DNA of 64,000 bases, taken from positions 42,408,001 through 42,472,000 of the forward strand of contig OX597823.1 in the NCBI GenBank assembly GCA_951406725.2, in the 5' to 3' direction. Below the pieces are notes generated by a model, which saw nothing but the letters and a program-made list of their open reading frames with translations, ran no database searches and was not told where the DNA came from. A program made the translations under genes and the position numbers. Below are positions 283 to 41,285 of this stretch, piece after piece. Every line of letters starts with the position of its first letter. Position 1 is the stretch's first letter. The stretch comes from Octopus vulgaris (Eukaryota).

Positions 283-1244
283 TGTATATGTATGTCTGTG
301 TCTTTCAAGATATAGACAATGTAACACAGACTTTAAAAAACTTTCACTTTGAACAGAAGTAGAGGAAAAAAGTTGTTGTTGAGAGAGATAGATATACAGT
401 AAGAGAAAGAGAGCACGAGAGAGAAAGCGTGTACATGTGTGTGTGAAACATAGATTGGTAGTGTTGTCACCATAGCAACTAACAAGTTTTGGTTAAAAAA
501 ACATGGAAATTTTAAGTGCAAGTCTGTCAACACAACACAGACTTCAAAAAAAGGCTATATGTATATAAAACATATAGCTATTTTTTAAAATTTGTATGTG
601 TTTCTTTCTGTGTCTTTCAATATACAGATAGTACAACACAGACTTAGTAAAACACTTTCACTTAGAAAAATTGATAAAGGTACATGTATGGTTAACAAAT
701 ATTTTTACTGGCAACATAGCGATGGGCAAGAACCTAGTATATGTAATATATAGCAATTTCATAAAATTAATTGAGATTATCCACGTCATTAGAAGACAGA
801 AGCTCCGCATGAGAAATGACAAATAATATCAATAAATAGCAATTAAAAAATGCTGTATGGGAGAGGATCTGGCCTTGGAACCAATTGAGGAAATCAATGA
901 ACATGTTTTAAGAATATTACATCTCATCGAAGCATTCCCTTAGCAAAGCTCAGAATTACACACACACACACACACACATGGGTAAATTGTCGCCATTTTT
1001 TTATTTCTGATTTTGCACATCTGCATTGTTTGTTTTTGAGTTTGTCAACCAGACAGTATAGTAGGGTCAGTTGGGCACTGTCTGTGAGAAAAATAGCACA
1101 ATGCCACAATTCACTCTACCAGAAATTTGGAAACAACATACTGTACTGCTTGGCATTCATGGCGGAAGCTCCAATACGAACATTCCAGTGTGTTTGGGTG
1201 TCAATCTGGTGACAATGAAATCTGAGGACACGTACTGAATGTGA

Positions 1245-1846
1245 TAAAAATCAAATATCCAGTCAACATCATGGTGATTGGAGTGATCCCTAGTAATGAT
1301 GACTTTATGCCTCCATTCCTCTTCCCACAAGGCCTCAGATTCAACACAGAGTGTCTGAAGGAGGTGCTGCTGTCGTGGGTGAAGATGGTGGCTGCTGGAA
1401 GACCCTAGGTCTGGTAACAGGCCTCTACACCTTGGCACACAAGCAGAAGAACCCAGTCATGGCTGTCGGACAATTTCTGTGATCACATCAACCCCTAACA
1501 TCTGGCCACCTAACTCCCCAGACTGCAACCCCTTAATAATTATGTGTGGGGTGCAGTTGAGCAAGAGACCAACAAAACTCATCATAATACCAAAGATGAA
1601 GTGAAGGCAAGGATTATGGCACCATTCACCAACTTAAACAAGGAGATTGCCCAGAAGAGTTGCATGAGATTCCGAAGTCGTCTGGAGGCCATAGTCGAAG
1701 CCAATGGCAATTTTATTGAATAAATTTACTCTTTAATATTTCAAGAAATTTTTACATAATTTTAGTAAATATAACTGTTAAAATGAGTTGTCAGTGTTAT
1801 TTTCATTTTTGCATAATTTAGATGACAGTTAATTCACCGGACCCTG
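1245..1846 (+). mobile_element. maT (DD37D) Tc1/mariner-superfamily transposon, 3' fragment
   Basis: Degenerate KYPVNIMVIGVI..MPPFLF..GRP*VW*Q..WPPNSPDCNPL..YVWG..FRSRLEAIVEANGNFIE*. 37 residues separate the second and third catalytic positions. Ends in TIR-like ACCCTG. Confidence 0.85.
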
Positions 1847-2053: not shown

Positions 2054-2706
2054 AACTAAATTCAAATCCAATATGGTATTTAAATACCACATACTATAAA
2101 CAGAGCCATCACTCCAAAACCACCAGTTGCTCACTATTAAAATACACATGGCCAAAGCAATAAACATAACAGAAACAGGCTTACTTTTCGTGAAATACTG
2201 AAGTAAGGAATGTATATATTTCAGGATCAATTAATTTCACTTTCTGTATGAAAAATCAAACGTTAAGTGAATCCGCTGAAAATAACACTGTTACATCTAT
2301 TTCTAAGATATTCATCACATTATGCCATGTATATTGTTTACTTTTGAATGTCCCCGCGACATTCAAAATGGATTTCTCATGAGCCAGTATAAACTTATAG
2401 ACTGAGAGCCAGTCTTGATTTGATTAGACTTGAAACTCAAAAATACTGGCAAGGCACAATATGTGTACAAATGGTCCTAATTCCATGAAATGTGATTCTT
2501 AAGTATGCTTAGGTATGGATTAACTAATTATGAGATGGATAATCAACTTGCGTAAATAACTAATTTAATTAGACTTTAAGCTCCAGTAATGAATTACATT
2601 GACTATTACTCCTTAGACACAAGTGATACTTAAATGAAAACTTAAGAAAAAACTAGTATGGAAAGACAAATTAAGAAGTTTTAATTAGACAATTAGGAAT
2701 TAATTA

Positions 2707-3153
2707 GACTTTCTTCTCCAGCGTCAATTACTTCGCAGAAATGTTCACTAAACTCAACTGAATCTATTCATGTCACTTAAGAACCATTTTAGGCTTGGAT
2801 TTCTAATTTAAGAAGCATGTTCTACTAATCACTATACACTAATTAAGGAGAAATATACAGAAACACTGGTTTCAAGCTACGACATGAATGCAACATAGAA
2901 ACATACCTTAGACCCATTTAACATGAAGGGAAGAAATTAAGAAACATCCCAGGTATTGGAAGACAATAAGAAACCTTTTAATTAGATCGTTAATAAGGTC
3001 TTAATTAGACTTTCTGCTCCGGTGTAAATTCCTTCTCATAAATATTGGGTTCATCAAATCATAGTATATAATCATAGTATGTAAGAATCATTATAGGTAT
3101 GGATTCCTAATTTAAGAAGCATTTTGGCTAATTAACACATCCTCTTCATTGAA
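2707..3153 (+). repeat. Left arm of the Academ long inverted repeat
   Basis: Reverse complement of 7198-7628 aligns along its length, e.g. AATTACTTCGCAGAAATGTTCACT and AACTGAATCTATTCATGTCACTTAAGAACCATTTTAGG. Confidence 0.95.
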
Positions 3154-3195
3154 TTGTACTGGGGGTTTTGGCAAGCAAACCCCCTGTACAATTCA

Positions 3196-6100
3196 TCGTA
3201 CTGAGGCTGCTAGTTAGGATGCCTTATTTGTCGTTACGCAAGGAGCAATCAAACCCAGAAAACACATTGCAATGGGTATGGGTATAAAATCCATGACAGT
3301 CAGCAGAAAGGAGGTCACCCTCTTGAACCATTATGGCTAGAGCATCAATTATCATTGCGCAGAGGAACTGAGTTGACCTTTGCCCACAATGAGAAGCAGA
3401 CCATCGTCCCCGAGGGCGTACAACCAAACCGAGTAATGAGGAATGCCTACGATAATTATGACGAACTCGCCTGCACTCTATCAGGTGCAAATTCCTTACA
3501 CGATACGACGGGCATCCTTTACCAAAACGAAGATGAAACAGATCGAGGACGGCGTGATGCATCAGAATGGATAGTCCCGACTCCTTGGGAGAAACCAGAG
3601 AAAAGGAGAAAGTTGGATACAGACGATTCTGCACTTCTGCCCTACAAGAAGACTGCAAGAGTGAAATCGTTTTGTTACAGTACGACAAACGTGTGGGACA
3701 GGCCCGTTGCGACACTGCTGAAAGCTCGCAAGGCAGATTACGTGTTCATGATGAGCCACTCCTTCAAAATAGATGGAACGCCAATGTGGGGTGCATTCAA
3801 TGCCAGGTATCGCACGGACACAATTCCAAGACAGAAGATCTTCTAAATGCCTAATATCAGTCATTCTCCGACGAGTTTGGATGTTGTGGGTGAAACTCCC
3901 CGATTGACACAGAAGTGCGCCCTGGAATGTAATCAACAGTATGGTCTCGTGACATACGATTTCGCAATAGCGAAACCTGCCATCAGAATCCAAGACACCG
4001 AAAGTCCGACCTTCGACAAAGTATTCAGAATGTTCGGCCAATTTCATCTCCAGATGTGCAGTTTCAAGGCAATTGGCAAACTATTGGCCGCGTCAGGTGG
4101 CCCAAGAATCCTTACAGAGTGCGACAACGTACTTTCCCCTGGATCGCTGAAGGGATTCGAGTCTGGCACTCATTTCAACAGATGTAAGCAGCTGCATCCA
4201 ACCATGGCTTTCGCATTCGAGTGTCTTCACTTCAAAGCATTCCTTCAAAGCTATGAAACTGACGACATCGAAGTCCAGCTTGCGGTGGAAGAGGCACTCG
4301 GTACCCCAACTTGCGCTGTTACTTCCGATCTGTTGGAGAAAGTCATCTCTGATTACATGAAATTTTCGGAAGAGATAAAGAACGGAGCTCGAGGACCTAC
4401 CGCTCAATTCTGGATGGATTACATCGAAAGAATGCACGATTATCATGTACTCGATCATGCCATCAGAACAAACGATGTTGACTTGTTCATAGACGCTTTC
4501 GCTCCGATCATCTCTCTGCTGTTCGCAACCGATCGACAGAACTACGCTAGGTATATGATGAAGTACCAGATAGGTCTTATGAATATAGATGAGACACACC
4601 CTGGATTATTAAGAGGCTTGCTTAATCATGATAGGTTCACTATTTGTAGAACCAGTAATTCGTTCTCAAGGTGTCCTATCGATCTAACACTGGAACAGAC
4701 AATCAATGCTGATGCTGCTTCTCGGCTCATAGGGTTGTCAGCTATGACGAACAACTATATAGCCAGACTCCGTTGGATGTTCACCAAGTCATCTCGGGCT
4801 GCTATTGTCACTGAGCTGATGGAGATGGCAGGGATGGACACCACAGAATCAACTGTAGCTGAGCAACGACCGGCAAGAGTCAAGCGAGGCCGATCAGATT
4901 TGGAAAAAGTGATCGCGCAGATAGAAAAGTCCTGTAACCCTTTCACCCTTATGAACACGACTGACATACACACGGGAAAGGCATGCAGTGAAAACGTGAA
5001 GAGAAGTCTGCTCGATGTTCGAGCAACTGGCAGAAACATGCACGAAACATTCGTTGCGGAATGCGTCGAAAACCCAGCACTATTCGAAAAGCCACTGAGA
5101 AAGATAAAGATTAAAACCTTCGCAAGTGATAGCGTTGGAAATCGGCGACCAAAGAACAAAAGATTACAACGAATGAAATGCACATGTGACTTGATGGGTA
5201 GGATGTTGATCATCTCAGCGAAAGAGAAATTGGACCTCAAGCATGTTCTCACATACCCAATTACGCCTGTTCCGTTGGCACTCTGTTGCAGCGACGGTAA
5301 AATGACGAAAACCGATAAAAGCAAGTTGTTCAGCTATCTCGAGAGCCACGCAATGGAAGTTCATCAACCAAGCATCCAAACACCTTCTGTGATCGATGGG
5401 AACTTTTTGTTACACGTCATGCCATCCAAATTACCAAAGACATTCAGTGGATTGGCCTGGACAATCCTTGGCTTATGTGAAGCAACAGGTCGCCAACGTG
5501 TTGACATTGTGTACGACACACAACGGTCACCTTCCATCAAAGATGCTGAACGTGGACACAGACGTGCAACATAGATTACCTTCACCATAGTGGGACCAGA
5601 TCAGGTAACACCCAAGTTTTCCGAGGCAATGCAGTCCAGATCATTCAAATCGCAGCTTCCCCAGTTCCTTGCTCAAGAGTGGGAGAAAGACGAATACTCG
5701 TCGATTCTGGGTACTCGATCAATGTACGTCAGTGCTGGGGGTACCGTAATAATAAAGTTGTCATGATTCGAGAGAGAGCTCCAGAACTGGACTGCAACCA
5801 TGACGAGGGAGATACACGAGTGGTTCCTCATGTACTGCACATGGCACATGACTCTGAAGAAATTATCATCCGTGCGTCTGATACCGATATCGCTGTAATC
5901 ATGCTATGTCATCTCGAGAAAGTGAAGGCCACAGTATGGATGGAAGTGGGAACGAGCTGCCAGAACACTCGATGGTAAGTCAACCTGTCGCAGATAGCAG
6001 CATCGATTGGCCCTCTCATGTGCAAACCTCTGCCTGGATTTCACACATTTACAGGCTGTGGCTACACATCTTTTGACAGGCAAGGAAAGATACGGCCTCT

Positions 6101-6592
6101 TCAAATCCTTGAGCAGAACACAGAATTCCAGTATGCATTTGCCAAGCTGGGCGATGCTGACCCAGACCTGGAAACATTCATCATTATAGAAAAATATACC
6201 TGTCGCATATATCGCCAAATAAGCTGTACCAGAAACAACGACACACGTTACGCAGTCTTCGAGAAAGCATTCTCCCCCATGCGTTAAAGCAAAAGATCCA
6301 CTCGAGAAACTGAAGGGAATCGACGCAAGCAGTCTACCACCGTGCCACAATGAACTTTTGCAACAATACCAACGTGTAAGATTCGTTGCGAACTTGTGGA
6401 GAAATGTCGAATAATTGTTACTTGAACGACAACTGCAGTATGGATGGGAACTGGTCGATAACGAATGCACGATCATCTGGTTCCATGGCGAGTCTGACAG
6501 AGGAGAGACCAGCATCACTACCCATTGACGTGGATGATACCATGTTGACCGTATCCTCTGGCGACGAGCAGTCAGACTCCGGTACAGAATAG
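3196..6592 (+). pseudogene. Academ transposase fused to an XPG/FEN1-like nuclease (few stops and frameshifts; N-terminus missing)
   Basis: Stitched from ORFs 3355-3846, 3847-5574, 5679-5978, 6018-6287 and 6386-6592. Transposase motifs: KPRKHIAMGMGIKSMT, AYDNYD..TLSG..SLHDTTGILYQ, VTYDFAIA, GQFHLQM, GTHFNRC, PIDLTLEQTIN. Nuclease motifs: VIDGN, RVDIVYD, NHDEGDTRV, SDTDIAV, PGFHTFTGCGYTS..GK, LPPC. Confidence 0.85.
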
Positions 6593-7197
6593 AATACACA
6601 CTGCAGCCGTTTGGATAATGGGGCGTCATATACCAACACCTCTACTCTTTGGTGTAAATGTATTGATAGATTTAAAATGCCATGGCGTATGTGTCGTTTA
6701 GAGGCAGTACGAGAATTTGAATATCTAGCGTTAAGTATTTACATATTTGATCATCATATAAAATTTTGTTAATTCCAACAATGCGAGTAAGGGGTTTCGA
6801 TGCTCACTATTATACTTTCACTCCAGTCTTGCTTTGTAAGCCGCGGTTTTGTCAACAGGCTAAAGTTGCGACATGGTACGTAAACGTTTCAATTCGTTGT
6901 TGGTTTCTTATAGCCAGTTTGCATTAATGAGACATTTTTGTCCAAGGGGCAAGTTGCCCTTTGTTGTAGTTTTAATCCATTTTTTGTTTGTAACAGTCAG
7001 TTTCTATTTTTGTCAAGTTTCTGACGGGACAAGTCACGTTCAAGAGAAAACTTACTGCTTTAAAAATTAATTTCATTCGAATGAACGAAAGCTACATGCA
7101 TTATATGTTGACAGAAGTCAGTATCAGTAATGGAGGAAGGATTCCGATGCCATGCAATGGAAAATCAACATTTTTTCAGTTAAAGGTGTTTTTCCAT

Positions 7198-7628
7198 ATT
7201 CAATAGAGGATGATATGTTTATTAGTTAAAATGCTTCTTAAATTAGGGATCCATACCTATCATTCTTACATACTATGATTATATTCAGTTTGACGAGCCG
7301 AATATTTTTGTGAAAGAATTTACACCGGAGCATAAAGTCTAATTAACGATCTAATTAAAGATTTCCTAATGTCTTCCAATACCTGGGACGTTTCTTAATT
7401 TCTTCCTTTGATGTCAACTGGGTCTAAGACATGTTTCTATGTTGCATTCATCACGTAGCTTGAAAACAGTGTTTCTGCATGTTTCTTCTTAATTAGTGTA
7501 TTGTAATTAGTAGAAAATGCTTCTTAAATTAAAAATCCATACCTAAAATGGTTCTTAAGTGACATGAATAGATTCAGTTGGGTTCAGTGAACATTTCTGC
7601 GAAGTAATTGTCGCTGGAGCAGAAAGTC
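7198..7628 (-). repeat. Right arm of the Academ long inverted repeat
   Basis: Inverted copy of 2707-3153 with scattered substitutions and small indels. Confidence 0.95.
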
Positions 7629-7629
7629 A

Positions 7630-8305
7630 AATGAAAAATAAAAAAACATTTACCCTATTTTTTTATTTTTCATTCCCTTTCAGAATTACAGCTATTAGTG
7701 GTTTGTAGTTTAACTACTCTTTCCAGCGAGTCAAATGTCCTGTTATGTCCATCTCTTATGTGTTTAAATGTACACTGTATGTGTATATATATATATAATA
7801 TATAGTCTATTGACTAATTTTTCCTTCTTGCTAGACCACTGGTAGTAAAGAATTTTTCTAAAATTTATTTGCTACCCTATGATTTACTAATTAATGATAA
7901 AAAAGTTTTTTGGCTAGTTTTGAAAGAAAATCGGCACTTGCTTGTATTTACTGCCAAAAAATCCGCGTGTGCGATGGATTTTGAAAAATTATAACATATA
8001 AACACAAGGCATGTTCTTTATCACCTCGTATCTATATGTTAGCCTTGGCTTCCTGCTGAAGAGGACAACGCCAATTGTAAATTAATATTATTTTATTTTA
8101 TTTTATTTTATTTACAAAAGATTGCCTGAAACTATGCATAGTCCAGGAAAAATACGGTAAATGTTTATTTTTTTTTCATTCCCTTTCAGAATTACAACTA
8201 TTAGTGGTTTGTAGTTTAACAACTCTTTGTAGCGAGTCAGATGTCCTATTATGGCCATCTCTTATGTGTTTAAATGTACACTGTATGTGTATATATATAT
8301 ATATA
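7630..8305 (+). mobile_element. Partial tandem (~505 nt period) Penelope pLTR/retrozyme-like repeat containing a hammerhead ribozyme
   Basis: Direct repeat 7668-7795 vs 8173-8300 (TTTCATTCCCTTTCAGAATTACA...AAATGTACACTGTATGTG). The hammerhead lies immediately upstream of the second copy. Confidence 0.7.
8050..8149 (+). ncRNA. Type I hammerhead ribozyme with palindromic stem III and extended stem II
   Basis: Stem I TTCCTG/CAGGAA; core CTGAAGA 8056-8062; stem II GGACAA..TTGCCT with inner hairpin TTGTAAAT..ATTTACAA; GAA 8128-8130; perfect palindrome ACTATGCATAGT; GUC cleavage triplet at 8141-8143. Confidence 0.85.
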
Positions 8306-8310
8306 TGTAT

Positions 8311-8510
8311 AGGGAGAATTCACAAAAAAACAAAAGATGAAGACAGATGGTATAGACAACATACAGATGTATTAGTTTAACACTCGGGAAGTGAAAAAGT
8401 CTTTAATGTTTCGAGCCTATGCGCTTCCACAGAAAGGAACACAGAAAGAAACACAGAAAGAAACAAGGAGAGAAAATAAAGAATGTGTAGTGGCTAGAGA
8501 TCTATCATGG
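8311..8510 (-). mobile_element. ~200 nt microsatellite-flanked element with a variant minimal hammerhead (second copy at 42634-42818)
   Basis: Minus strand 8401-8436 reads CTTT-CTGTGGA-AGCGCatagGCTC-GAA-ACAT-T-AAAG. Flanked by (TA)n and (CA)n. Confidence 0.65.
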
Positions 8511-9360: not shown

Positions 9361-9439
9361 TTATTTCATTAAGATTGACCATAAAGGCATTACAAAGAGC
9401 AGCTTGCGGGATGGACATATACATTGACGAGATGAATGA

Positions 9440-9750
9440 TGAAATAAGGATGATATTGATGAGAGAAGGCATCTATTTACAAGCTTTTTAATCCCATCAA
9501 TGTAAAACGCTTTTGGTTTCAAAGTAAAGAATTCTAAAATGTAAGTTTCGACCTCGTCCTGGTTTGTAAAAGTTATGACCCCCAAATGATTCTGTAAACT
9601 ACAAAACAAATGGTAGTCTGAAGGAGCAAGGTTGGGAGAATAAGGTGGATGAGGAATATTTTCCCAACCAAGCTCTTCGATCTTCTGTGATGTGATCTTT
9701 GCAGTGTGGGGTCACGCATTGTCCTGATGAAACGTCACTCCTTTTTTTGA
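9440..9750 (-). mobile_element. mariner (DD34D) transposase C-terminal fragment
   Basis: Minus strand FHQDNA*PHTAKITSQKIEELGWENIPHPPYSPNLAPSDYHLFCSLQNHL..FYIDGIKKLVNRC. Confidence 0.9.
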
Positions 9751-16000: not shown

Positions 16001-16799
16001 GTAAGTGTACTGGTGATCATGTGGTCATCAAGAAAGGGAAAAAAATTATTAAATAAGAAATTTGCATCAGATATCCTGGTTACTTAGTAATTGTTCCTTA
16101 ATAAGGTATAAGGCCTGTAATTTGAGAGAAGGTGGGAGTCAATCACATCGGCCCTCAATGCTTGACAGGTACTTTATTATATTGATCCCAGAAAGCTAAC
16201 TTGTGCAGGATTTGAACTCAGAATGTTAAGTGTCAGAACAAATGCCGTGAAAGTATTTTTCTAAGCTCTAAAGATTCTCCCAGTTCACAACCTTTATGTA
16301 CATTCTAATAACGTGAAGCTGGTCGATACAAGAGTATTGTAATTTGCTCAATGCACTACCATATGCATAAAGGAGATAAATGTTTGAAAAATCTCTGTGA
16401 TATGGATAACAAATTAAAATATTTAAGGTGATGTCAAATAATTTGCATATTCTAACAGCTAGAGCACACATCATTAGCAACAAAATGAAACACTTAACAT
16501 ATCAGCATTTTAACACTTTGTCTACCATGAGAATCGCTGGTGACTCCCAATCATGATATTTTTTCATGAAGCCTTACATTACAGCGTATCAAAATATATT
16601 ATTCAAATTTTAGGAAATGTACAGAACACAGATATCAGATGGGTGTAAGTCACAATCATTTCCAACATTGTAGTACTACCCCTTATGAAAATAATTTTTG
16701 TCAAAAAGAAACCACTAAAGCTTATATTTTCTGGGGGGAAAAATCTGGGGAAGCAAAAATCCATAAATGGGGGTATACTGGATATTTTAGCACTACATG

Positions 16800-19455
16800 T
16801 ATTAATCTATGAATTGGAAAATAACCAGAAGGCAATCATCGTAAGTGCATATGTCTCAACCATGAGCCACCTAGATGAATACAGAGAAGCCTTCTATGAT
16901 GACCCCAGGAGAGTAATTAGAAGCATACCATATAAAGTGAAGCTAATCCTTCTGCAGGACTTTAATGCTTGTGTTGGTAAGGATCATTCTACATGGAAGG
17001 GTGTAGCGTGGGAACATGTCATTGGATGGAAGAATTCTAATGGTCATCTCTTCCTGACGAAATGTAGAGAGTTCAAGCAAGCAATTACTAACACAGTCTA
17101 CAAGTACAAAACCTCGATGCACACTGGCATTTGATACACTATGTGATTGTTCAGTAGAGGGACTAAAATGATGTTTGTTATACCAGATCATTCAGAGGCA
17201 CAGACTGCTGGTCAAATCACAGGAGCATCATGTCCTTAAAGTTTACAGTTAAACTGTCTAGCCACAGAACCAAACCTGTAAAGAAGTTCAATATACCCTC
17301 ACCCAAGGTAAAGGAAAAGCTCACTGAATTAGTAGAGTCCATAGATTAAGTTCTGGAAAGCATATCAGATGACTCTCAATATTGAACAAAACTGGAAGAG
17401 CTTAAAGCAGCATATATATGAGAAAACCGCTGAGCCTTTTGGCTTTGTTAAGTACAAACATCATGACTAGTTTAATGAGAACAATCAAGACATTGGAAAA
17501 CTCATTGACATTATGTATTCTGCTCATAACAAGTACTTCGCGGCCAAAGCATTGAGAGGAACTAAAGCCAGGTACCATCAGGCAAAACACATCCTATAGA
17601 CCAGGTTAAAAACCATGAAGAACCTGTGGTAAGAGAACAAAGCATTTGACCTACAGGCAGTTGACAAACATGACATAAAGACATTTTATGAGGGTCTCAA
17701 GGTAGACTATGGCCTCAAGACTAGTAGTGCTCTACGTGTTCTAATATTAGATGACACACAGCTTCTTATGGACAAGAATTACATCCTCTCTCATTGGGCA
17801 GAACACTTTAACAGAGTTCTAAAACAAGTATCAACAGCAAACAACGATATCATAGATGACTTCCCACAATGTATCTTGGATCAGCTTGACTGGGAACCAT
17901 CCCTGTCAGAAGTGATAAAAGACAAAGCAACTGTACTCTGGGAAGTCATCAGGTTCAGAAGGCAAACCAGGCAAGGCAGCACTCACCTGGCTAAAAAATT
18001 CACCAAGCTTTACCAGTATATATAGAACCAACACAAGACTACAAAGGTGTTTCTATAATACTGTTGCAACAACCATCATGATATATAACTCCTTTCTATT
18101 GCCAGTTAAACATTTGCTCATCAGGATCATTCTTCACCTAGTAGACACTGAGAACTCTAAATCACAATGTAGTTTCTATGGTAGTCAAAGATCAATTAAT
18201 ATGATATACACTTCATGTCAGGTTCAGAAGAAGGCCAGAGAGCAGTACCAGGACCTCTACTGGGATTTTGTTAATTTAACAAAACTTTAGATAAAGTTAA
18301 CTGTGATACTCCCTGGAAAGTACTTTACAAATCTGGATATCTCCAAAAAGATTGTCGGAGTAATAAGATCATTCCACAATGGTATGATGGCCTTCATGAT
18401 TCAGCTTCCAACACATTCTACATAAAAAGAAAGGAACCAAGTTGGACTGAGTGATGGTATCTATCTCATTGGCAAGTTACTTCTTAGTTATGATGCAAGA
18501 GGTATTCAGAGATATTGTGAAAGGTGAACACATCTAGTTTAGGATACATGGTAATGTTTTCAATCTACAAGACCTCAAGACCCAGAACCAAAGTCAGAGA
18601 ACATCTGAGAGAGTTTCTATTTGCAGACGATTGTGCACCCTCTACAAGACATCCAAGCATTAGTTGACTGTTTTACTTATGTTGCTTGATCTTTTGGCCT
18701 AACCATCAGCTTGAGGAAGACCAGCCAGTACCTGGACACCCAAAATAGGATTTTATTGTCATAGTAGACAATGCCCCAGTAAATGCTGTGACAAAATTCT
18801 GCTACCAAAGAATCATTCTATCAAACAATGTTCAATTGGATGAAGAGAACCCCTTAGCAATTGTCTAAAACAAGCTCATCTTGCAATAAACTCTAACACT
18901 GAATGTGGAGAGATCATGGACACTTTACAGGCATTATATTAAACAATTAGACTCATTCCATCTTGGTTGCCTTCATCCAATTTGCAACAGAGTGATGGGA
19001 CAAAGTCCCTAACACAGAGGTTCTTACAAGAGATGACATTCTAGACATAGAGAGATACCTTATCAAAGCACAACTGAAGTGGTCAGTTATGTAGTACACA
19101 TGGATGACACTTGCTTACCTAAAGCCCTCTTTTATGGTTGGTTTAGTTCTAGTACAAGGCAACAAGGTCACCCACTGCTCCATTATAAGGAGTCTTTAAA
19201 AACTTGCTTGAAAATCTGTCGGATAAACCTGAAGATATGGGAAGTGATAGCGCTGAATAAAACTCAGTAGAGAAGCTCTTGCTGCCAAGCCAACTCCTAC
19301 TTTGGGGCAGTCATAATCAACACCCTGAATGAGAAAAGAGCCCAACATAGGTCAATTCTACAACAAAATGAGGATCACCACTGCAACAGGATCTGCAAAT
19401 CCTGGATATACCTGTATTCCTATATGAGACCACACAACAAAATATCAAGCTGAGA
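16800..19455 (+). mobile_element. Decayed RTE-clade (BovB-like) LINE
   Basis: Endonuclease region SAYVSTM..EAFYDD..KLILLQDFNACVG..NSNGHLFL..C..ITNT; HWAEHF..VL; RT FLFADDC (~18615-18635); HMDDTCLPKALFYG..GHPLLHYKESLK; terminal CNRICKS..H motif. Confidence 0.9.
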
Positions 19456-30113: not shown

Positions 30114-30373
30114 ACAGTAATACTTATGTGAACTGTTCCACAATAGATATGAAGATGATTTTGGTTATTGGAGTGACCAATACAAAGTTAAATGGTGAGC
30201 TGAGCTAGCTAATATTTCTATTTGTATTTCTCATTTCATTGTTGGTTTGTTTAGGCAGTAATTATCTTGATTCTATGATCTATGTAAACCTGCTTATTTA
30301 TAAAGCATGTATGATCTCCCAATTTGATGATAAAGAACTGTGTTATATAACTGGTTCTGTAATCAATTATTAA

Positions 30374-31298
30374 TTACATGAGAATCGAACCAAATATCAA
30401 TGGAAACAGTAGTAGTTGTGATACCTGTGCCGGTGACACATAAAAAGCACCATCCGAACGTGGCTGTTGCCAGTGCAGCCTCCACTGGCTTCTGTGCCGG
30501 TGGCACATAAAAAGCTCCATCCGAACGTGACCGATGCCAACCCTGCCAGCACCATCCGAACGTGGCCGTTGCCAGTGCAGCCTCCACTGGTTTCTGTGCT
30601 GGTGGCACATAAAAAGCACCAACCGATCGTGGGATCCCGGAACATCTCGCTGTGCTTGAGGAGACCTGTTGAGTCAAGTGCATGTACATGAGAATCGAAC
30701 CAAATATCAATGGAAACAGTAGTAGTTGTGATACCTGTGCCGGTGACACATAAAAAGCACCATCTGAACGTGGCCGTTGCCAGTGCAGCCTTCACTGGCT
30801 TCTGTGCCGGTGGCACATAAAAAGCTCCATCCGAACGTGACCGTTGCCAACCCCGCCAGCACCATCCGAACGTGGCCGTTGCCAGTGCAGCCTCCAGTGG
30901 CTTCTGTGCCGGTGGCACATAAAAAGCACCATCCGAACGTGACCGATGCCAACCCTGCCCCGAATGGCTTCTGTGCCGGTGGCACATAAAAAGCACCATC
31001 CGAACGTGGCCGATGCCAGCACCGCCTTGACTGGCTTCTGTGCCGGTCGCACATAAAAAAGCACCAACCGATCGTGGCCGATGCCAGACCCCTCTGGCAC
31101 CTGTGCAGGTGGCACGTAAAAAGCACCCACTACACTCGCAGAGTGGTTGGTGTTAGGAAGGGCATCCAGCTGTAGAAACACTGCCAGACCAGACTGGAGC
31201 CTGGGGCAGCCCCTGGCTCCCCAGACCCCGGTCGAACCGTCCAACCCGTGCTAGTGCGGAAAATGGACGTTAAACGATGATGATGATGATGATGATGA
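30374..31298 (+). mobile_element. Young family C (RTE 3' UTR) copy with expanded minisatellite and ~310 bp tandem duplication
   Basis: 30375-30620 is repeated at 30685-30930. Unit GGCACATAAAAAGCACCATCCGAACGTGGCCG; CpG-rich; (GAT)n tail. Confidence 0.9.
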
Positions 31299-39069: not shown

Positions 39070-41285
39070 GGGTGCTTAAGCTATTTGTAGACATACCTTT
39101 TTTGGGATCATTGCTGCATTTTTTTGCTGACTCTGTATAATCTTTGGTTCAGAAAATAATAATGGCAGATCTCAGCTTATTCATGAAATGAAGAGGCATG
39201 CTGTTATTGTGGTTATAAAGGCTGAGCATAGCAATTTAGAAATATATCAACTTTTAAAAGTTGCCAGATCTTTTGTCTACAAAGTTTGTAAGGTGTTAGA
39301 GATTGAAGATGGAAATGTATCACAAGTATCAAAGGGTAAAAAACATTCTAAACACTCTGAAACCATCAGAACATCTGAATTTATCTAGCAAGTTCAACAG
39401 ACCACTGATTACAATCCCATAAAGTCCATGAGGTCAATTGCAAAAGATCTCCATGTGTCAGAAGGAATAGTTAGTTAGTTAGTTAGTTAATTTGGCTCAA
39501 AAGCAAATAGCAAGGCCATGTAGGGGGACATGGAGTTAAGTACAGGGTGGTGTTCATGTAAAGAGTTCAGGCCACTTGAGGTCCAGGGAGGCTTTGAACA
39601 AAGCGGTCGTCGGCATCTTCACCATCTCGTCTGGCAGCTTGTTCCACGGATCCGCAACCCGGACGGAGAAAGCTCCTCTCCTTCGATTGAGATGAAATCG
39701 TCGCAGGTAGAGCTTTTCGGAATGACCCCGCAGCCGACGCTCCAGAGCAGGAGTGAAGAACAGCTCTTTCGAGAGGTTACACTTCCCGCTTATGATGTTC
39801 TGGGCGAGAATGAGATCACCACGGCGGCGGCGTTTTTCAAGAGAATAAAGGTCGAGCGTCCTCAGCCTTTCTTCGTAGGACAAATTTTTGAGACCATGAA
39901 CCATGCGGGTAGCCAGCCTCTGGACTCTTTCGAGATGCTGTATGTCTTTGAGGAGATAAGGAGAAGAGGCTTGAATCCCATACTCCAATATGGGTCTCAC
40001 CAGCGTGACATAGAGTGGTAGGAATATGGCTGCTGTGAGCATTCCGAATGACCGTCGAATCAAAAACAGAATTCCGCACGCTTTGTTGGCAGCATGGACG
40101 CACTGGGCCAAAGGCGAAAAGGAGGAATCCACCAAGATACCCAGGTCCTTTACCTGATCGGTCCTCTCCAGCAGCAAACGACCCGGCTCGAAATCAAGTT
40201 GAGTTGCAGGAGTAGAGCCGACAGGCAGATGACAGCACTTTGACACATTCAGACACAGGTCCCAATCGTTAGACCACTTCCAAATTTGGTGGAGGCATCG
40301 ACGAAGATCCTCTATACTACCACGAGGAGTGACCAGTTTGATATCGTCAGCAAATAGAAGGGTGTGTTGCGTGAGGTCGTCGGGCAAGTCATTTATGACT
40401 TGTCAGAGATGTTGACTAGTCAGAGATGTTGTCCACAAAGTCATCAGATATAAGTCTTTTATGATGAGGAAAGGTTAATTTGAGAGAAAAAAACAAAAGA
40501 AAATCACTTCATTAGATCTAAATGGTTCTTAAACAACCTGAAAAATCCAGCGGAAGAAGATTTGATTTGGTTTTTCTCAAACGAGAAAATCTTTGACCAA
40601 GATCAAAAAGTTGACAGAAGATATGACAGATAGTTATGTGCAGACCCTTCTGAAGTTCCAAGTGATATGCATACAAAATTTCCTGCAAATGTCATGGTTT
40701 TAGGGGTTGTCAGCAATGATGGAGATGTGATGTCTCCTTACTTCTTTCTACAAGGCCTTCGACTTAACTTTGCCACTTACATTGAGGTTCTGAAAACAAT
40801 TGTCAAGCCCTGGATAGACAGTGTATGCAATGGAAGGCCATATGTGTTTCAGTAAGACTGCACTATCACATATGGCTCTAGTAACACAGGAGTGGATGGT
40901 TGAAAAGTTTCATGATCTCATAACCCCTAACATTTGGCCTCCTAATTCCCTAGATCTCAATCTATTGGGCTATTACATGTGGAGCATTGTTGAGGGAGAG
41001 GTCAATGAACATGCCCATAACACCAAAGATTCTTTGAAAGTTGCCATAGTCAGTGTAATGTCCAAAATTAACCAGGACCACTTGATTCGAGCCAAGAGAT
41101 GATTTAGATCTCATATAGAAGCAGTTGTTGAAGCTGAAGGTGGCTTTATTGAATAACATTATAGAAAAGAAGATTTATTTTTATTCTCATAGCAGTTTTT
41201 GCTAAATAAAGTTATTATCTGTTATTATATATCTGCTTTCTTTTTTATAAACATAAATCTGTCCTCAAATATCTTACGCACCCTG
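39068..41285 (+). mobile_element. Full-length decayed maT (DD37D) transposon interrupted by a CR1 LINE
   Basis: TIRs CAGGGTGCTTAAGCTATTTGTAGACA / TGTCCTCAAATATCTTACGCACCCTG within TA/CA repeats. Transposase pieces MKRHAVIV..SMRSIAKDLHVS, WFFSNEKIF, KFPANVMVLGVVS, WPPNSLDLNLL, EAEGGFIE*. Confidence 0.92.
39468..40397 (-). mobile_element. 5'-truncated CR1-clade LINE with uninterrupted ORF2 C-terminus and (TAAC)n tail
   Basis: ORF 39554-40387: INDLPD..LLFADDIKL..KCCHL..DLGILVD..LVRPILEY..LERVQRLATR..YEERL..RGDLI..FSVRV..WNKLP. Tail TAGTTAGTTAGTT at 39468-39490. Confidence 0.95.

What the first reader, a model, noticed from the sequence alone, without database searches (positions are those of the whole stretch)
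2490..7628. AcademX transposon: DDE transposase fused to an XPG/FEN1-like nuclease, with very long inverted repeats
Seen: ~1100 codons with few lesions, carrying a candidate DDE triad (DNYD, TYD, LEQ), a PIN-like acidic set (IDG, VYD, DEGD, DTD) and an H3TH-like GCxY..GK motif, between ~440 bp inverted repeats. Known: Academ elements (Kapitonov and Jurka; Kojima) encode this fusion, but to my knowledge the nuclease's role in transposition has not been shown experimentally. Inference: a nearly reconstructable copy useful for resurrection.
Basis: partly seen in the sequence, partly recalled or inferred. Interest (0 to 1): 0.7.

Follow-up and report, generated by a model that had tools for sequence, protein, structure and literature searches.

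The report
Dead AcademX transposon copy in octopus
This is a broken copy of a jumping gene, likely of the known but untested AcademX kind, that has lost a quarter of its gene and one of its ends; its family's single protein joins a predicted cut-and-paste enzyme to a predicted second DNA-trimming enzyme that would free the element's other strand.

Summary
The motifs and inverted repeats are real and the AcademX reading is well supported; 'nearly reconstructable copy' is not. The element starts at 2398, not 2490. The family's terminal repeats are about 870 bp; the 455 bp pairing seen here is what is left after a 1.44 kb deletion (about 400 N-terminal codons of about 1550) and loss of the outer 300 bp and terminus of the right arm. 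The remnant has 6 stops, 4 frameshifts and Gly at a conserved nuclease Asp, and decays about neutrally. Sister copies give 3-bp target duplications (4 of 7 two-ended copies exact) and unequal termini (TAGAC.. versus TAATG..); 8 of 31 assignable arms carry the opposite terminus. Models match the P-element/IS256/hAT transposase fold and the FEN-like 5' nuclease superfamily (XRN1 first, XPG lower), so 'XPG' holds only at superfamily level. 65 of 66 relatives lack a C-terminal Cys finger. Intact relatives are common, so this copy adds little for testing the nuclease. The scan reported AcademX six times before in other genomes. No Repbase reference was available, so membership rests on architecture, fold and TSD.

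The parts
2398..2410 (+). 5'-type terminus of the element (TAGACTGAGAGCC)
   Evidence: Homology among sister copies begins here; 24 of 48 termini are of this type. Junction bridged by contigs of runs X2 and X8.
2398..3154 (+). Left arm of the ~873-bp terminal inverted repeat (inner ~120 bp deleted); holds an internal ~300-bp duplication (2636-2818 / 2930-3122, 74%) and six ATTAGAY motifs, candidate transposase sites (inferred)
   Evidence: motif 6 observed against 0.29 expected, 0 of 5000 mononucleotide shuffles reach 6, motif chosen after looking
3151..3154 (.). Deletion junction (GAAT shared by both sides); 1442 bp missing relative to L024: inner repeat, 5' leader, about 400 N-terminal codons
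   Evidence: junction bridged by single contigs in runs X2, X6, X8, so not an assembly error
3151..6592 (+). Broken remnant of the single transposase-nuclease ORF (46.6% GC against 36% for the window)
3436..4845 (+). DDE catalytic core with helical insertion domain: D 3451, D 3958, GxxH His 4045, E 4693; interrupted by TAA at 3844
   Evidence: AlphaFold model pLDDT 82; VIA-align best match P element transposase Z 10.1, rmsd 5.2, 300 aligned; codons
5380..6290 (+). FEN-like 5' nuclease domain (PIN core plus H3TH-type GxDY motif); stops at 5572 and 5976, frameshift near 5742-5763, Asp lost at 6060
   Evidence: Model of the sister copy L027, pLDDT 91; top 17 VIA-align rows are all 5' nucleases
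6277..6592 (+). C-terminal helical region and acidic tail, no Cys finger; family stop at 6590
   Evidence: 7 of 12 aligned sister stretches have a stop codon at 6590
6593..7078 (+). 3' unique non-coding region
   Evidence: Shared with sister copies
7079..7635 (-). Right arm of the terminal inverted repeat, inner 557 bp only; outer ~300 bp and the 3' terminus are absent
   Evidence: sister copies continue past this point, the window does not

Best explanation
The stretch 2398-7635 is a deleted, stop-ridden copy of a multi-copy DNA transposon family, likely AcademX, whose single protein is predicted to join a DDE transposase to a FEN-like 5' nuclease that would cut the element's second strand. 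Shown: ~870-bp terminal repeats with unequal outer ends, 3-bp target duplications, one ~1550-aa ORF in relatives, conserved catalytic residues in both domains, about neutral decay of this copy. Predicted by fold: an RNase H-like core with a helical insertion domain and a GxxH histidine (P element, IS256, hAT group), then a 5' nuclease with seven acidic residues and the arch Lys/Arg. Inferred mechanism for an active element (about 45% likely): the N-terminal Cys/His modules bind repeated motifs in the arms, the DDE site nicks the 3' ends and joins them to a target with a 3-bp stagger, and the fused nuclease cuts the non-transferred (5') strand at the branched end, as TnsA does for Tn7, so that transposition is cut-and-paste. 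This copy makes no working protein and lacks one end.
For: Identity: repeats plus ORF at other loci; TSD TAC, TCA, TTA, AAT exact in 4 of 7; chance about 5e-6; 66 relatives of 1021-1667 aa, best 46-50% identical; folds; nuclease columns about as conserved as the DDE core: mean 0.49 against 0.54, N-terminus 0.39; weak profile match to human EXO1 puts D78, K85, R92 and D225 on family-conserved residues. Dead: (pN/pS 0.67-1.64 in four stretches, two of which overlap). Mechanism by analogy: PMC9527255 (passages) for TnsA cutting 5' ends and cointegrates without it; PMC5499597 (passages) for FEN-like enzymes needing a free 5' end or flap; PMC7780238 (passages) for the insertion-domain His.
Against: No Repbase or Dfam Academ reference could be searched; Pfam gives only DUF6589 under its cut-off for the window protein and no XPG family for any of 24 relatives. 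The best structural matches of the nuclease are XRN exoribonucleases (Z 11.0-9.4), above the DNA enzymes (9.0-7.6), and Foldseek E-values are weak (best 6e-4). The nearest DDE folds (P element, Hermes) cut both strands without a second nuclease (recalled), so the need for one is not obvious. The EXO1 match has E 1.6 and ranks among chance hits. 3 of 7 two-ended copies lack an exact TSD (AAC/AAT, TTA/TTT, TTA/TGT). A 575-codon open stretch has P about 0.01 under random lesions. No biochemical data.
Confidence: 0.85

Rival explanations
1. Same element, but the nuclease acts after strand transfer or at the donor site: the DDE site cuts both strands (P-like stagger) and the nuclease trims leftover 5' flaps or resects ends to steer repair.
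For: Nearest DDE fold is the P element transposase, which leaves staggered ends (recalled); EXO1-like motifs fit resection; the Academ lineage with a helicase instead has a different TSD (PMC10045372).
Against: Host FEN1/EXO1 could do this job (inference), which makes invariant conservation across relatives down to about 30% identity harder to explain. Nothing here separates it from the best reading.
Confidence: 0.3
2. The nuclease acts on RNA (XRN-like or RNase H-like): it removes RNA from R-loops or primers at the long repeats, or counters small-RNA silencing, and is not part of DNA cleavage.
For: XRN1/XRN2 lead all three fold searches of the domain.
Against: The lead over DNA 5' nucleases is 1-2 Z units at rmsd 4.5-4.8 and may reflect shared insertions; the sequence motifs align with EXO1 (weak); Atlas neighbours with families are Pox_G5 and XPG clusters at scores under 0.9 (leads only).
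Confidence: 0.1
3. The 575-codon open stretch (3847-5574) is a domesticated host gene.
For: Longest open stretch has P about 0.01; gene predictions overlap the locus (P0082, P0083).
Against: pN/pS 0.80 (41 non-synonymous, 20 synonymous), within the range of broken sisters (0.39-1.68); the first catalytic Asp lies before the stop at 3844; P0083 is a chimera with a LINE-like frame at 17.6 kb.
Confidence: 0.03
4. Not Academ but an unnamed P/Kolobok/MULE-like superfamily that captured a 5' nuclease independently.
For: No direct reference comparison was possible; no Cys finger; the 3' end reads TTA.
Against: Fusion, length, long repeats and 3-bp TSD all match the AcademX description; a Cys-finger-bearing protein (P0066) is homologous at E 1e-20; P and Kolobok TSDs differ (Kolobok TTAA, PMC9587614 passage; P 8 bp, recalled).
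Confidence: 0.05

Closest known systems
AcademX lineage of the Academ superfamily (Kapitonov and Jurka 2010; Kojima 2020; neither held; known here from passages of PMC10045372 and from recall)
   Same: One ORF with DDE transposase plus 5' nuclease, no helicase, long TIRs, 3-bp TSD, total length about 7 kb (about 5.2 kb here plus 1.44 kb deleted plus 0.3 kb lost; curated bivalve Academ average 5.6 kb, PMC10294476 passage).
   Different: No C-terminal Cys finger (acidic tail instead, as in 65 of 66 relatives); the two termini differ in their first 9 bp and the 3' end reads TTA; found in an octopus, whereas PMC10294476 reports Academ almost only in bivalves among molluscs.
Drosophila P element transposase (6p5a), with IS256-family ISCth4 (6xg8) and Hermes hAT (8edg)
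   Same: RNase H-like core with helical insertion domain (Z 10.1, 6.6, 6.3); a conserved His (GxxH, 65 of 66) 29 residues after the second Asp, where this group has C/DxxH; unequal ends (ISCth4 repeats differ mostly in the first 14 bp, PMC7780238 passage).
   Different: 7-8% sequence identity; G in place of C/D; no second nuclease in those enzymes; different TSD lengths (recalled).
FEN-like 5' nuclease superfamily: XRN1/2, FEN, EXO1, GEN1, T5 exonuclease, XPG
   Same: PIN core plus H3TH-type motif, seven acidic residues, arch Lys and Arg (definition in PMC5499597 passages).
   Different: 10-13% identity, no Pfam XPG_N/XPG_I/XRN_N hit; fused to a transposase; no single family stands out.
Tn7 TnsA/TnsB (functional analogy only)
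   Same: A DDE enzyme paired with an unrelated nuclease.
   Different: TnsA is a separate protein with a restriction-enzyme fold; the shared role is inferred, not tested.

Membership tests
AcademX (Academ superfamily) | DDE transposase domain of RNase H-like fold | tested here: met
   Model matches P element transposase Z 10.1, rmsd 5.2, 300 aligned; D/D/E conserved in 56, 66, 66 of 66 relatives. Foldseek alone found nothing at E <= 0.001.
AcademX (Academ superfamily) | XPG/FEN-type nuclease in the same polypeptide | tested here: met
   Top 17 VIA-align rows are 5' nucleases; relatives carry both domains in one ORF.
AcademX (Academ superfamily) | 3 or 4 bp target site duplication (PMC10045372 passage) | tested here: met
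   4 of 7 two-ended sister copies exact 3 bp, 2 with one mismatch, 1 none. Not testable on the window copy, which lacks its 3' end.
AcademX (Academ superfamily) | No helicase (which defines AcademH, with 9-10 bp TSD) | tested here: met
   The internal region of the family is accounted for by leader, one ORF and 0.5 kb; no helicase family in 24 relatives.
AcademX (Academ superfamily) | Long terminal inverted repeats | tested here: met
   About 873 bp in L024, 89% over 743 columns plus outer pieces.
AcademX (Academ superfamily) | Sequence similarity to curated Academ transposases (Repbase, Dfam) | not testable with these tools
   No such library is held; the defining papers are not held.
AcademX (Academ superfamily) | Termini 5'-TAG...CTA-3' (recalled, not read in any paper here) | tested here: inconclusive
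   5' end TAG; 3' end TTA in this family.
Cys-finger-bearing Academ elements (a subset; the finger is recalled and named in earlier AI notes, and is not part of the AcademX definition read here) | C-terminal Cys-rich finger | tested here: not met
   Absent in the window copy and sisters and in 65 of 66 relatives, some of which are cut short; present in P0066. Not filed under this subset.
XPG/Rad2 family proper | Pfam XPG_N and XPG_I domains, or XPG as nearest structure | tested here: inconclusive
   No Pfam hit; XPG Z 7.9 ranks 13th behind XRN, FEN, EXO1, GEN1.
FEN-like PIN superfamily | Six PIN-core acids plus H2TH/H3TH acid, arch lysine (PMC5499597 passages) | tested here: met
   Family: 58-64 of 66 at seven acidic positions, K 62 of 66. 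Window copy: the seventh Asp is Gly.

The most novel reading that the evidence does not exclude
AcademX is a P/IS256/hAT-type transposase that carries its own second-strand enzyme: a fused FEN-like nuclease doing the job of Tn7 TnsA, working on two unequal ends that are both required, while the very long arms recombine so that the inside of the element flips relative to its termini (8 of 31 assignable arms swapped). It would be a eukaryotic two-nuclease transposase.
Probability: 0.35. Interest if true: 0.6.

Novelty: new member of a known kind. Interest (0 to 1): 0.2.

Why it matters
The open question, what the second nuclease of AcademX does, is real: six literature searches returned no experimental study of Academ, though the library lacks the defining papers. 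But this copy does not make the question more testable than intact relatives do. What this locus adds is modest: exact ends, TSD and repeat length for an octopus family, unequal termini, mosaic arms, and a note that the nuclease is no closer to XPG than to XRN1, FEN or EXO1. It also qualifies the statement that mollusc Academ elements are almost confined to bivalves.

Tried and rejected
Pfam on window pieces and 24 relatives: only DUF6589 (19 of 24 members). PDB sequence search with the full alignment: 0 hits at E 10; with the nuclease alignment 4 hits at E 1.4-1.8, two of them EXO1. Foldseek on the DDE model: no match at E <= 0.001. Assembly artefact: rejected, both the left junction and the deletion junction are bridged in independent runs. 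Domestication: rejected. Helicase partner: none seen. Partner ends of 8 swapped arms: no hit in a further 10 kb each (0 of 8), so inversion versus gene conversion is undecided. TAATTAGACTTT with 2 mismatches is not enriched window-wide (14 against 16.5); only the local count in the arm is. Expression: no RNA holder listed, no evidence either way. The search of 1.84 billion representatives did not run, so family size and stand-alone forms were not measured; the near-length search (20 hits) cannot show that the nuclease never stands alone. Horizontal transfer into octopus was considered (46.6% GC, nearest relatives about 50% identical) but not tested; other Academ-like families at 22-41% identity exist in G000. 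No earlier Academ note in this genome.
Full report
Setting. The window is G000:C10:42408001-42472000 of a 2.8-Gb genome. Proteins matching sister loci at up to 100% are named Octopus vulgaris by their sources. The surroundings are simple repeats and transposon remnants.

Observation. The inverted repeats are real: 2700-3154 pairs with 7198-7635 at 86% over 456 columns. All listed motifs are present. They lie in three reading frames.

Boundaries. A search of G000 gave 119 matching pieces at 80-96% identity, a lower bound; an exact terminal pattern occurs 34 times, its reversed control 0 times. I fetched 40 loci. Homology starts at window 2398. L024 holds both arms and shows a repeat of about 873 bp. 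The window copy keeps 757 bp of the left arm, then joins the ORF through a shared GAAT, 1442 bp being absent relative to L024. On the right it keeps 7079-7635; the outer 300 bp and the terminus are gone, and a high-depth unrelated repeat follows. Contigs of runs X2, X6 and X8, labelled as three different organisms, bridge the deletion junction, and X2 and X8 bridge the left junction: insertion and deletion are real and shared.

Ends and TSD. Of 48 termini, 24 begin TAGAC(C/T)GAG and 24 TAATGCAGG, allowing up to 3 mismatches. All 7 two-ended copies have one of each. Four of the 7 have exact 3-bp duplications, two have one mismatch, one has none; chance of 4 or more is about 5e-6. PMC10045372 (passage) gives 3 or 4 bp for AcademX and 9 or 10 bp for AcademH. 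Of 31 termini that could be tied to an inner side (17 could not), 23 are in the usual arrangement and 8 are swapped, and variable columns show the arms to be mosaics. Recombination or conversion between the long arms is the likely cause; no swapped copy with both ends was found.

Protein. The 575-aa frame finds 66 relatives of 1021-1667 aa, the best 46-50% identical (only proteins over 1008 aa were searched). Against them the window covers from about residue 360-393 to about 1520. Sister copies hold the missing part, about 400 codons with two Cys/His modules. Of 41 loci, 18 have coding matches and none is whole: best 1166 of 1572 residues of P0001 (L025), window 1116. The window copy has 6 premature stops, 4 frameshifts and Gly for the H3TH Asp. 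Its private changes give pN/pS of 1.41, 0.80, 0.67 and 1.64 in four stretches, and most copies differ from the per-codon majority by 2-7%: a past burst, then neutral decay. Against this, the 575-codon open stretch has P about 0.01, but it lacks the first catalytic Asp. Repeat arms of different loci are 90% identical at the median, 97.6% at most.

Folds. The window's frame 3391-5574, with X at the stop, modelled at pLDDT 82. Foldseek found nothing significant; VIA-align ranked P element transposase first (Z 10.1, rmsd 5.2, 300 aligned), then ISCth4 6.6, Hermes 6.3, Tn5 6.2. A GxxH motif (65 of 66) sits where that group has C/DxxH (PMC9587614 and PMC7780238, passages). The nuclease was modelled from sister copy L027, where it lies in one frame (pLDDT 91). 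The top 17 VIA-align rows are FEN-like 5' nucleases: XRN1/2 Z 11.0-9.4, mycobacterial FEN 9.0, EXO1 8.8, GEN1 8.6, XPG 7.9. Foldseek agrees weakly (best E 6e-4, XRN2), as does the viral library. A profile match to EXO1 at E 1.6 aligns D78, K85, R92 and D225 with conserved residues. The seven acids and the arch Lys/Arg are kept in 58-64 of 66 relatives, most exceptions being gaps, so the nuclease is likely active in living elements. Only 1 of 66 relatives has a C-terminal Cys cluster.

Mechanism. Shown: ends, TSD, fusion, conservation. Predicted: the two folds. Inferred: the DDE site makes the 3' nicks and the 3-bp staggered joining; the nuclease cuts the non-transferred strand, as TnsA does (PMC9527255, passages). 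I give this 45%, trimming or resection after DDE double-strand cleavage 30%, an RNA substrate 10%, other roles the rest. The nuclease cannot shorten a TSD after strand transfer, because the gap strand is continuous with both flank and element (reasoning, not tested), so the 3-4 versus 9-10 bp difference more likely reflects transpososome geometry.

Literature seen. Passages only: PMC10045372, PMC10294476, PMC9587614, PMC5751038, PMC10799480, PMC4455052, PMC12730594, PMC5499597, PMC3627910, PMC9527255, PMC7780238, bioRxiv 10.1101/2021.09.26.461848. Not held: Kojima 2020, Yuan and Wessler 2011; Kapitonov and Jurka 2010 seen only as a citation. The XPG label, the Cys finger and TAG..CTA termini are recalled. 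Searches listed no experimental study of Academ. PMC10294476 reports Academ as almost confined to bivalves among molluscs; I did not check whether this species was in its set, and did not open supplements.

Verdict. A real but ordinary dead copy of a known kind. Earlier notes of this scan describe more complete AcademX copies elsewhere, one already noting P-like unequal ends. Interest 0.2.

Noticed in passing
L031, L037, L047, L030, L036, L040, L048, L050: Eight arms carry the terminus of the opposite end, and arms are mosaics at variable columns; possible inversion isomers or gene conversion between the long repeats.
   Followed up: partly
L030:1520-2230 and 4587-5318: A copy whose right arm is an inverted duplicate of the 5' side, including leader and N-terminal coding sequence.
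   Followed up: partly
window 3150-3195; L026:2118-2158, L029:2134-2174, L032:2064-2090: Four copies have 5' deletions ending within about 40 bp of the same ORF position (L026 and L029 share one junction); in the window copy the junction region reads as an imperfect hairpin, partly through letters not found in sisters.
   Followed up: partly
L039, L051, L058, L060: Short two-ended derivatives (458-1245 bp) made almost wholly of repeat sequence, MITE-like.
   Followed up: partly
window 7630-8312: A different high-depth repeat at the right break, with direct repeats 7658-7805 / 8164-8312 (93%) and short inverted stretches; also seen in L048, L051, L053. Not identified.
   Followed up: partly
L070 and about 29 other places in G000: Older or unrelated Academ-like nuclease remnants at 22-41% identity; L070 is closest to P0018 and P0065.
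   Followed up: partly
window 1217-1720 (+) and 9361-9711 (-): Frames that read like Tc1/mariner transposase remnants (recalled motifs); Pfam gave no hit at E 0.01.
   Followed up: partly
window 39554-40402 (-) and 16649-18025 (+): LINE-like remnants; RVT_1 at E 6e-5, under cut-off, for the first, no hit for the second. A predicted gene (P0083) splices the Academ nuclease piece to the 17.6 kb frame.
   Followed up: partly
window 30363-31250: GC-rich tandem array with repeated open frames.
   Followed up: no
P0022: A relative named as a bacterial MAG protein on a 5.7-kb contig, likely host contamination (inference).
   Followed up: no
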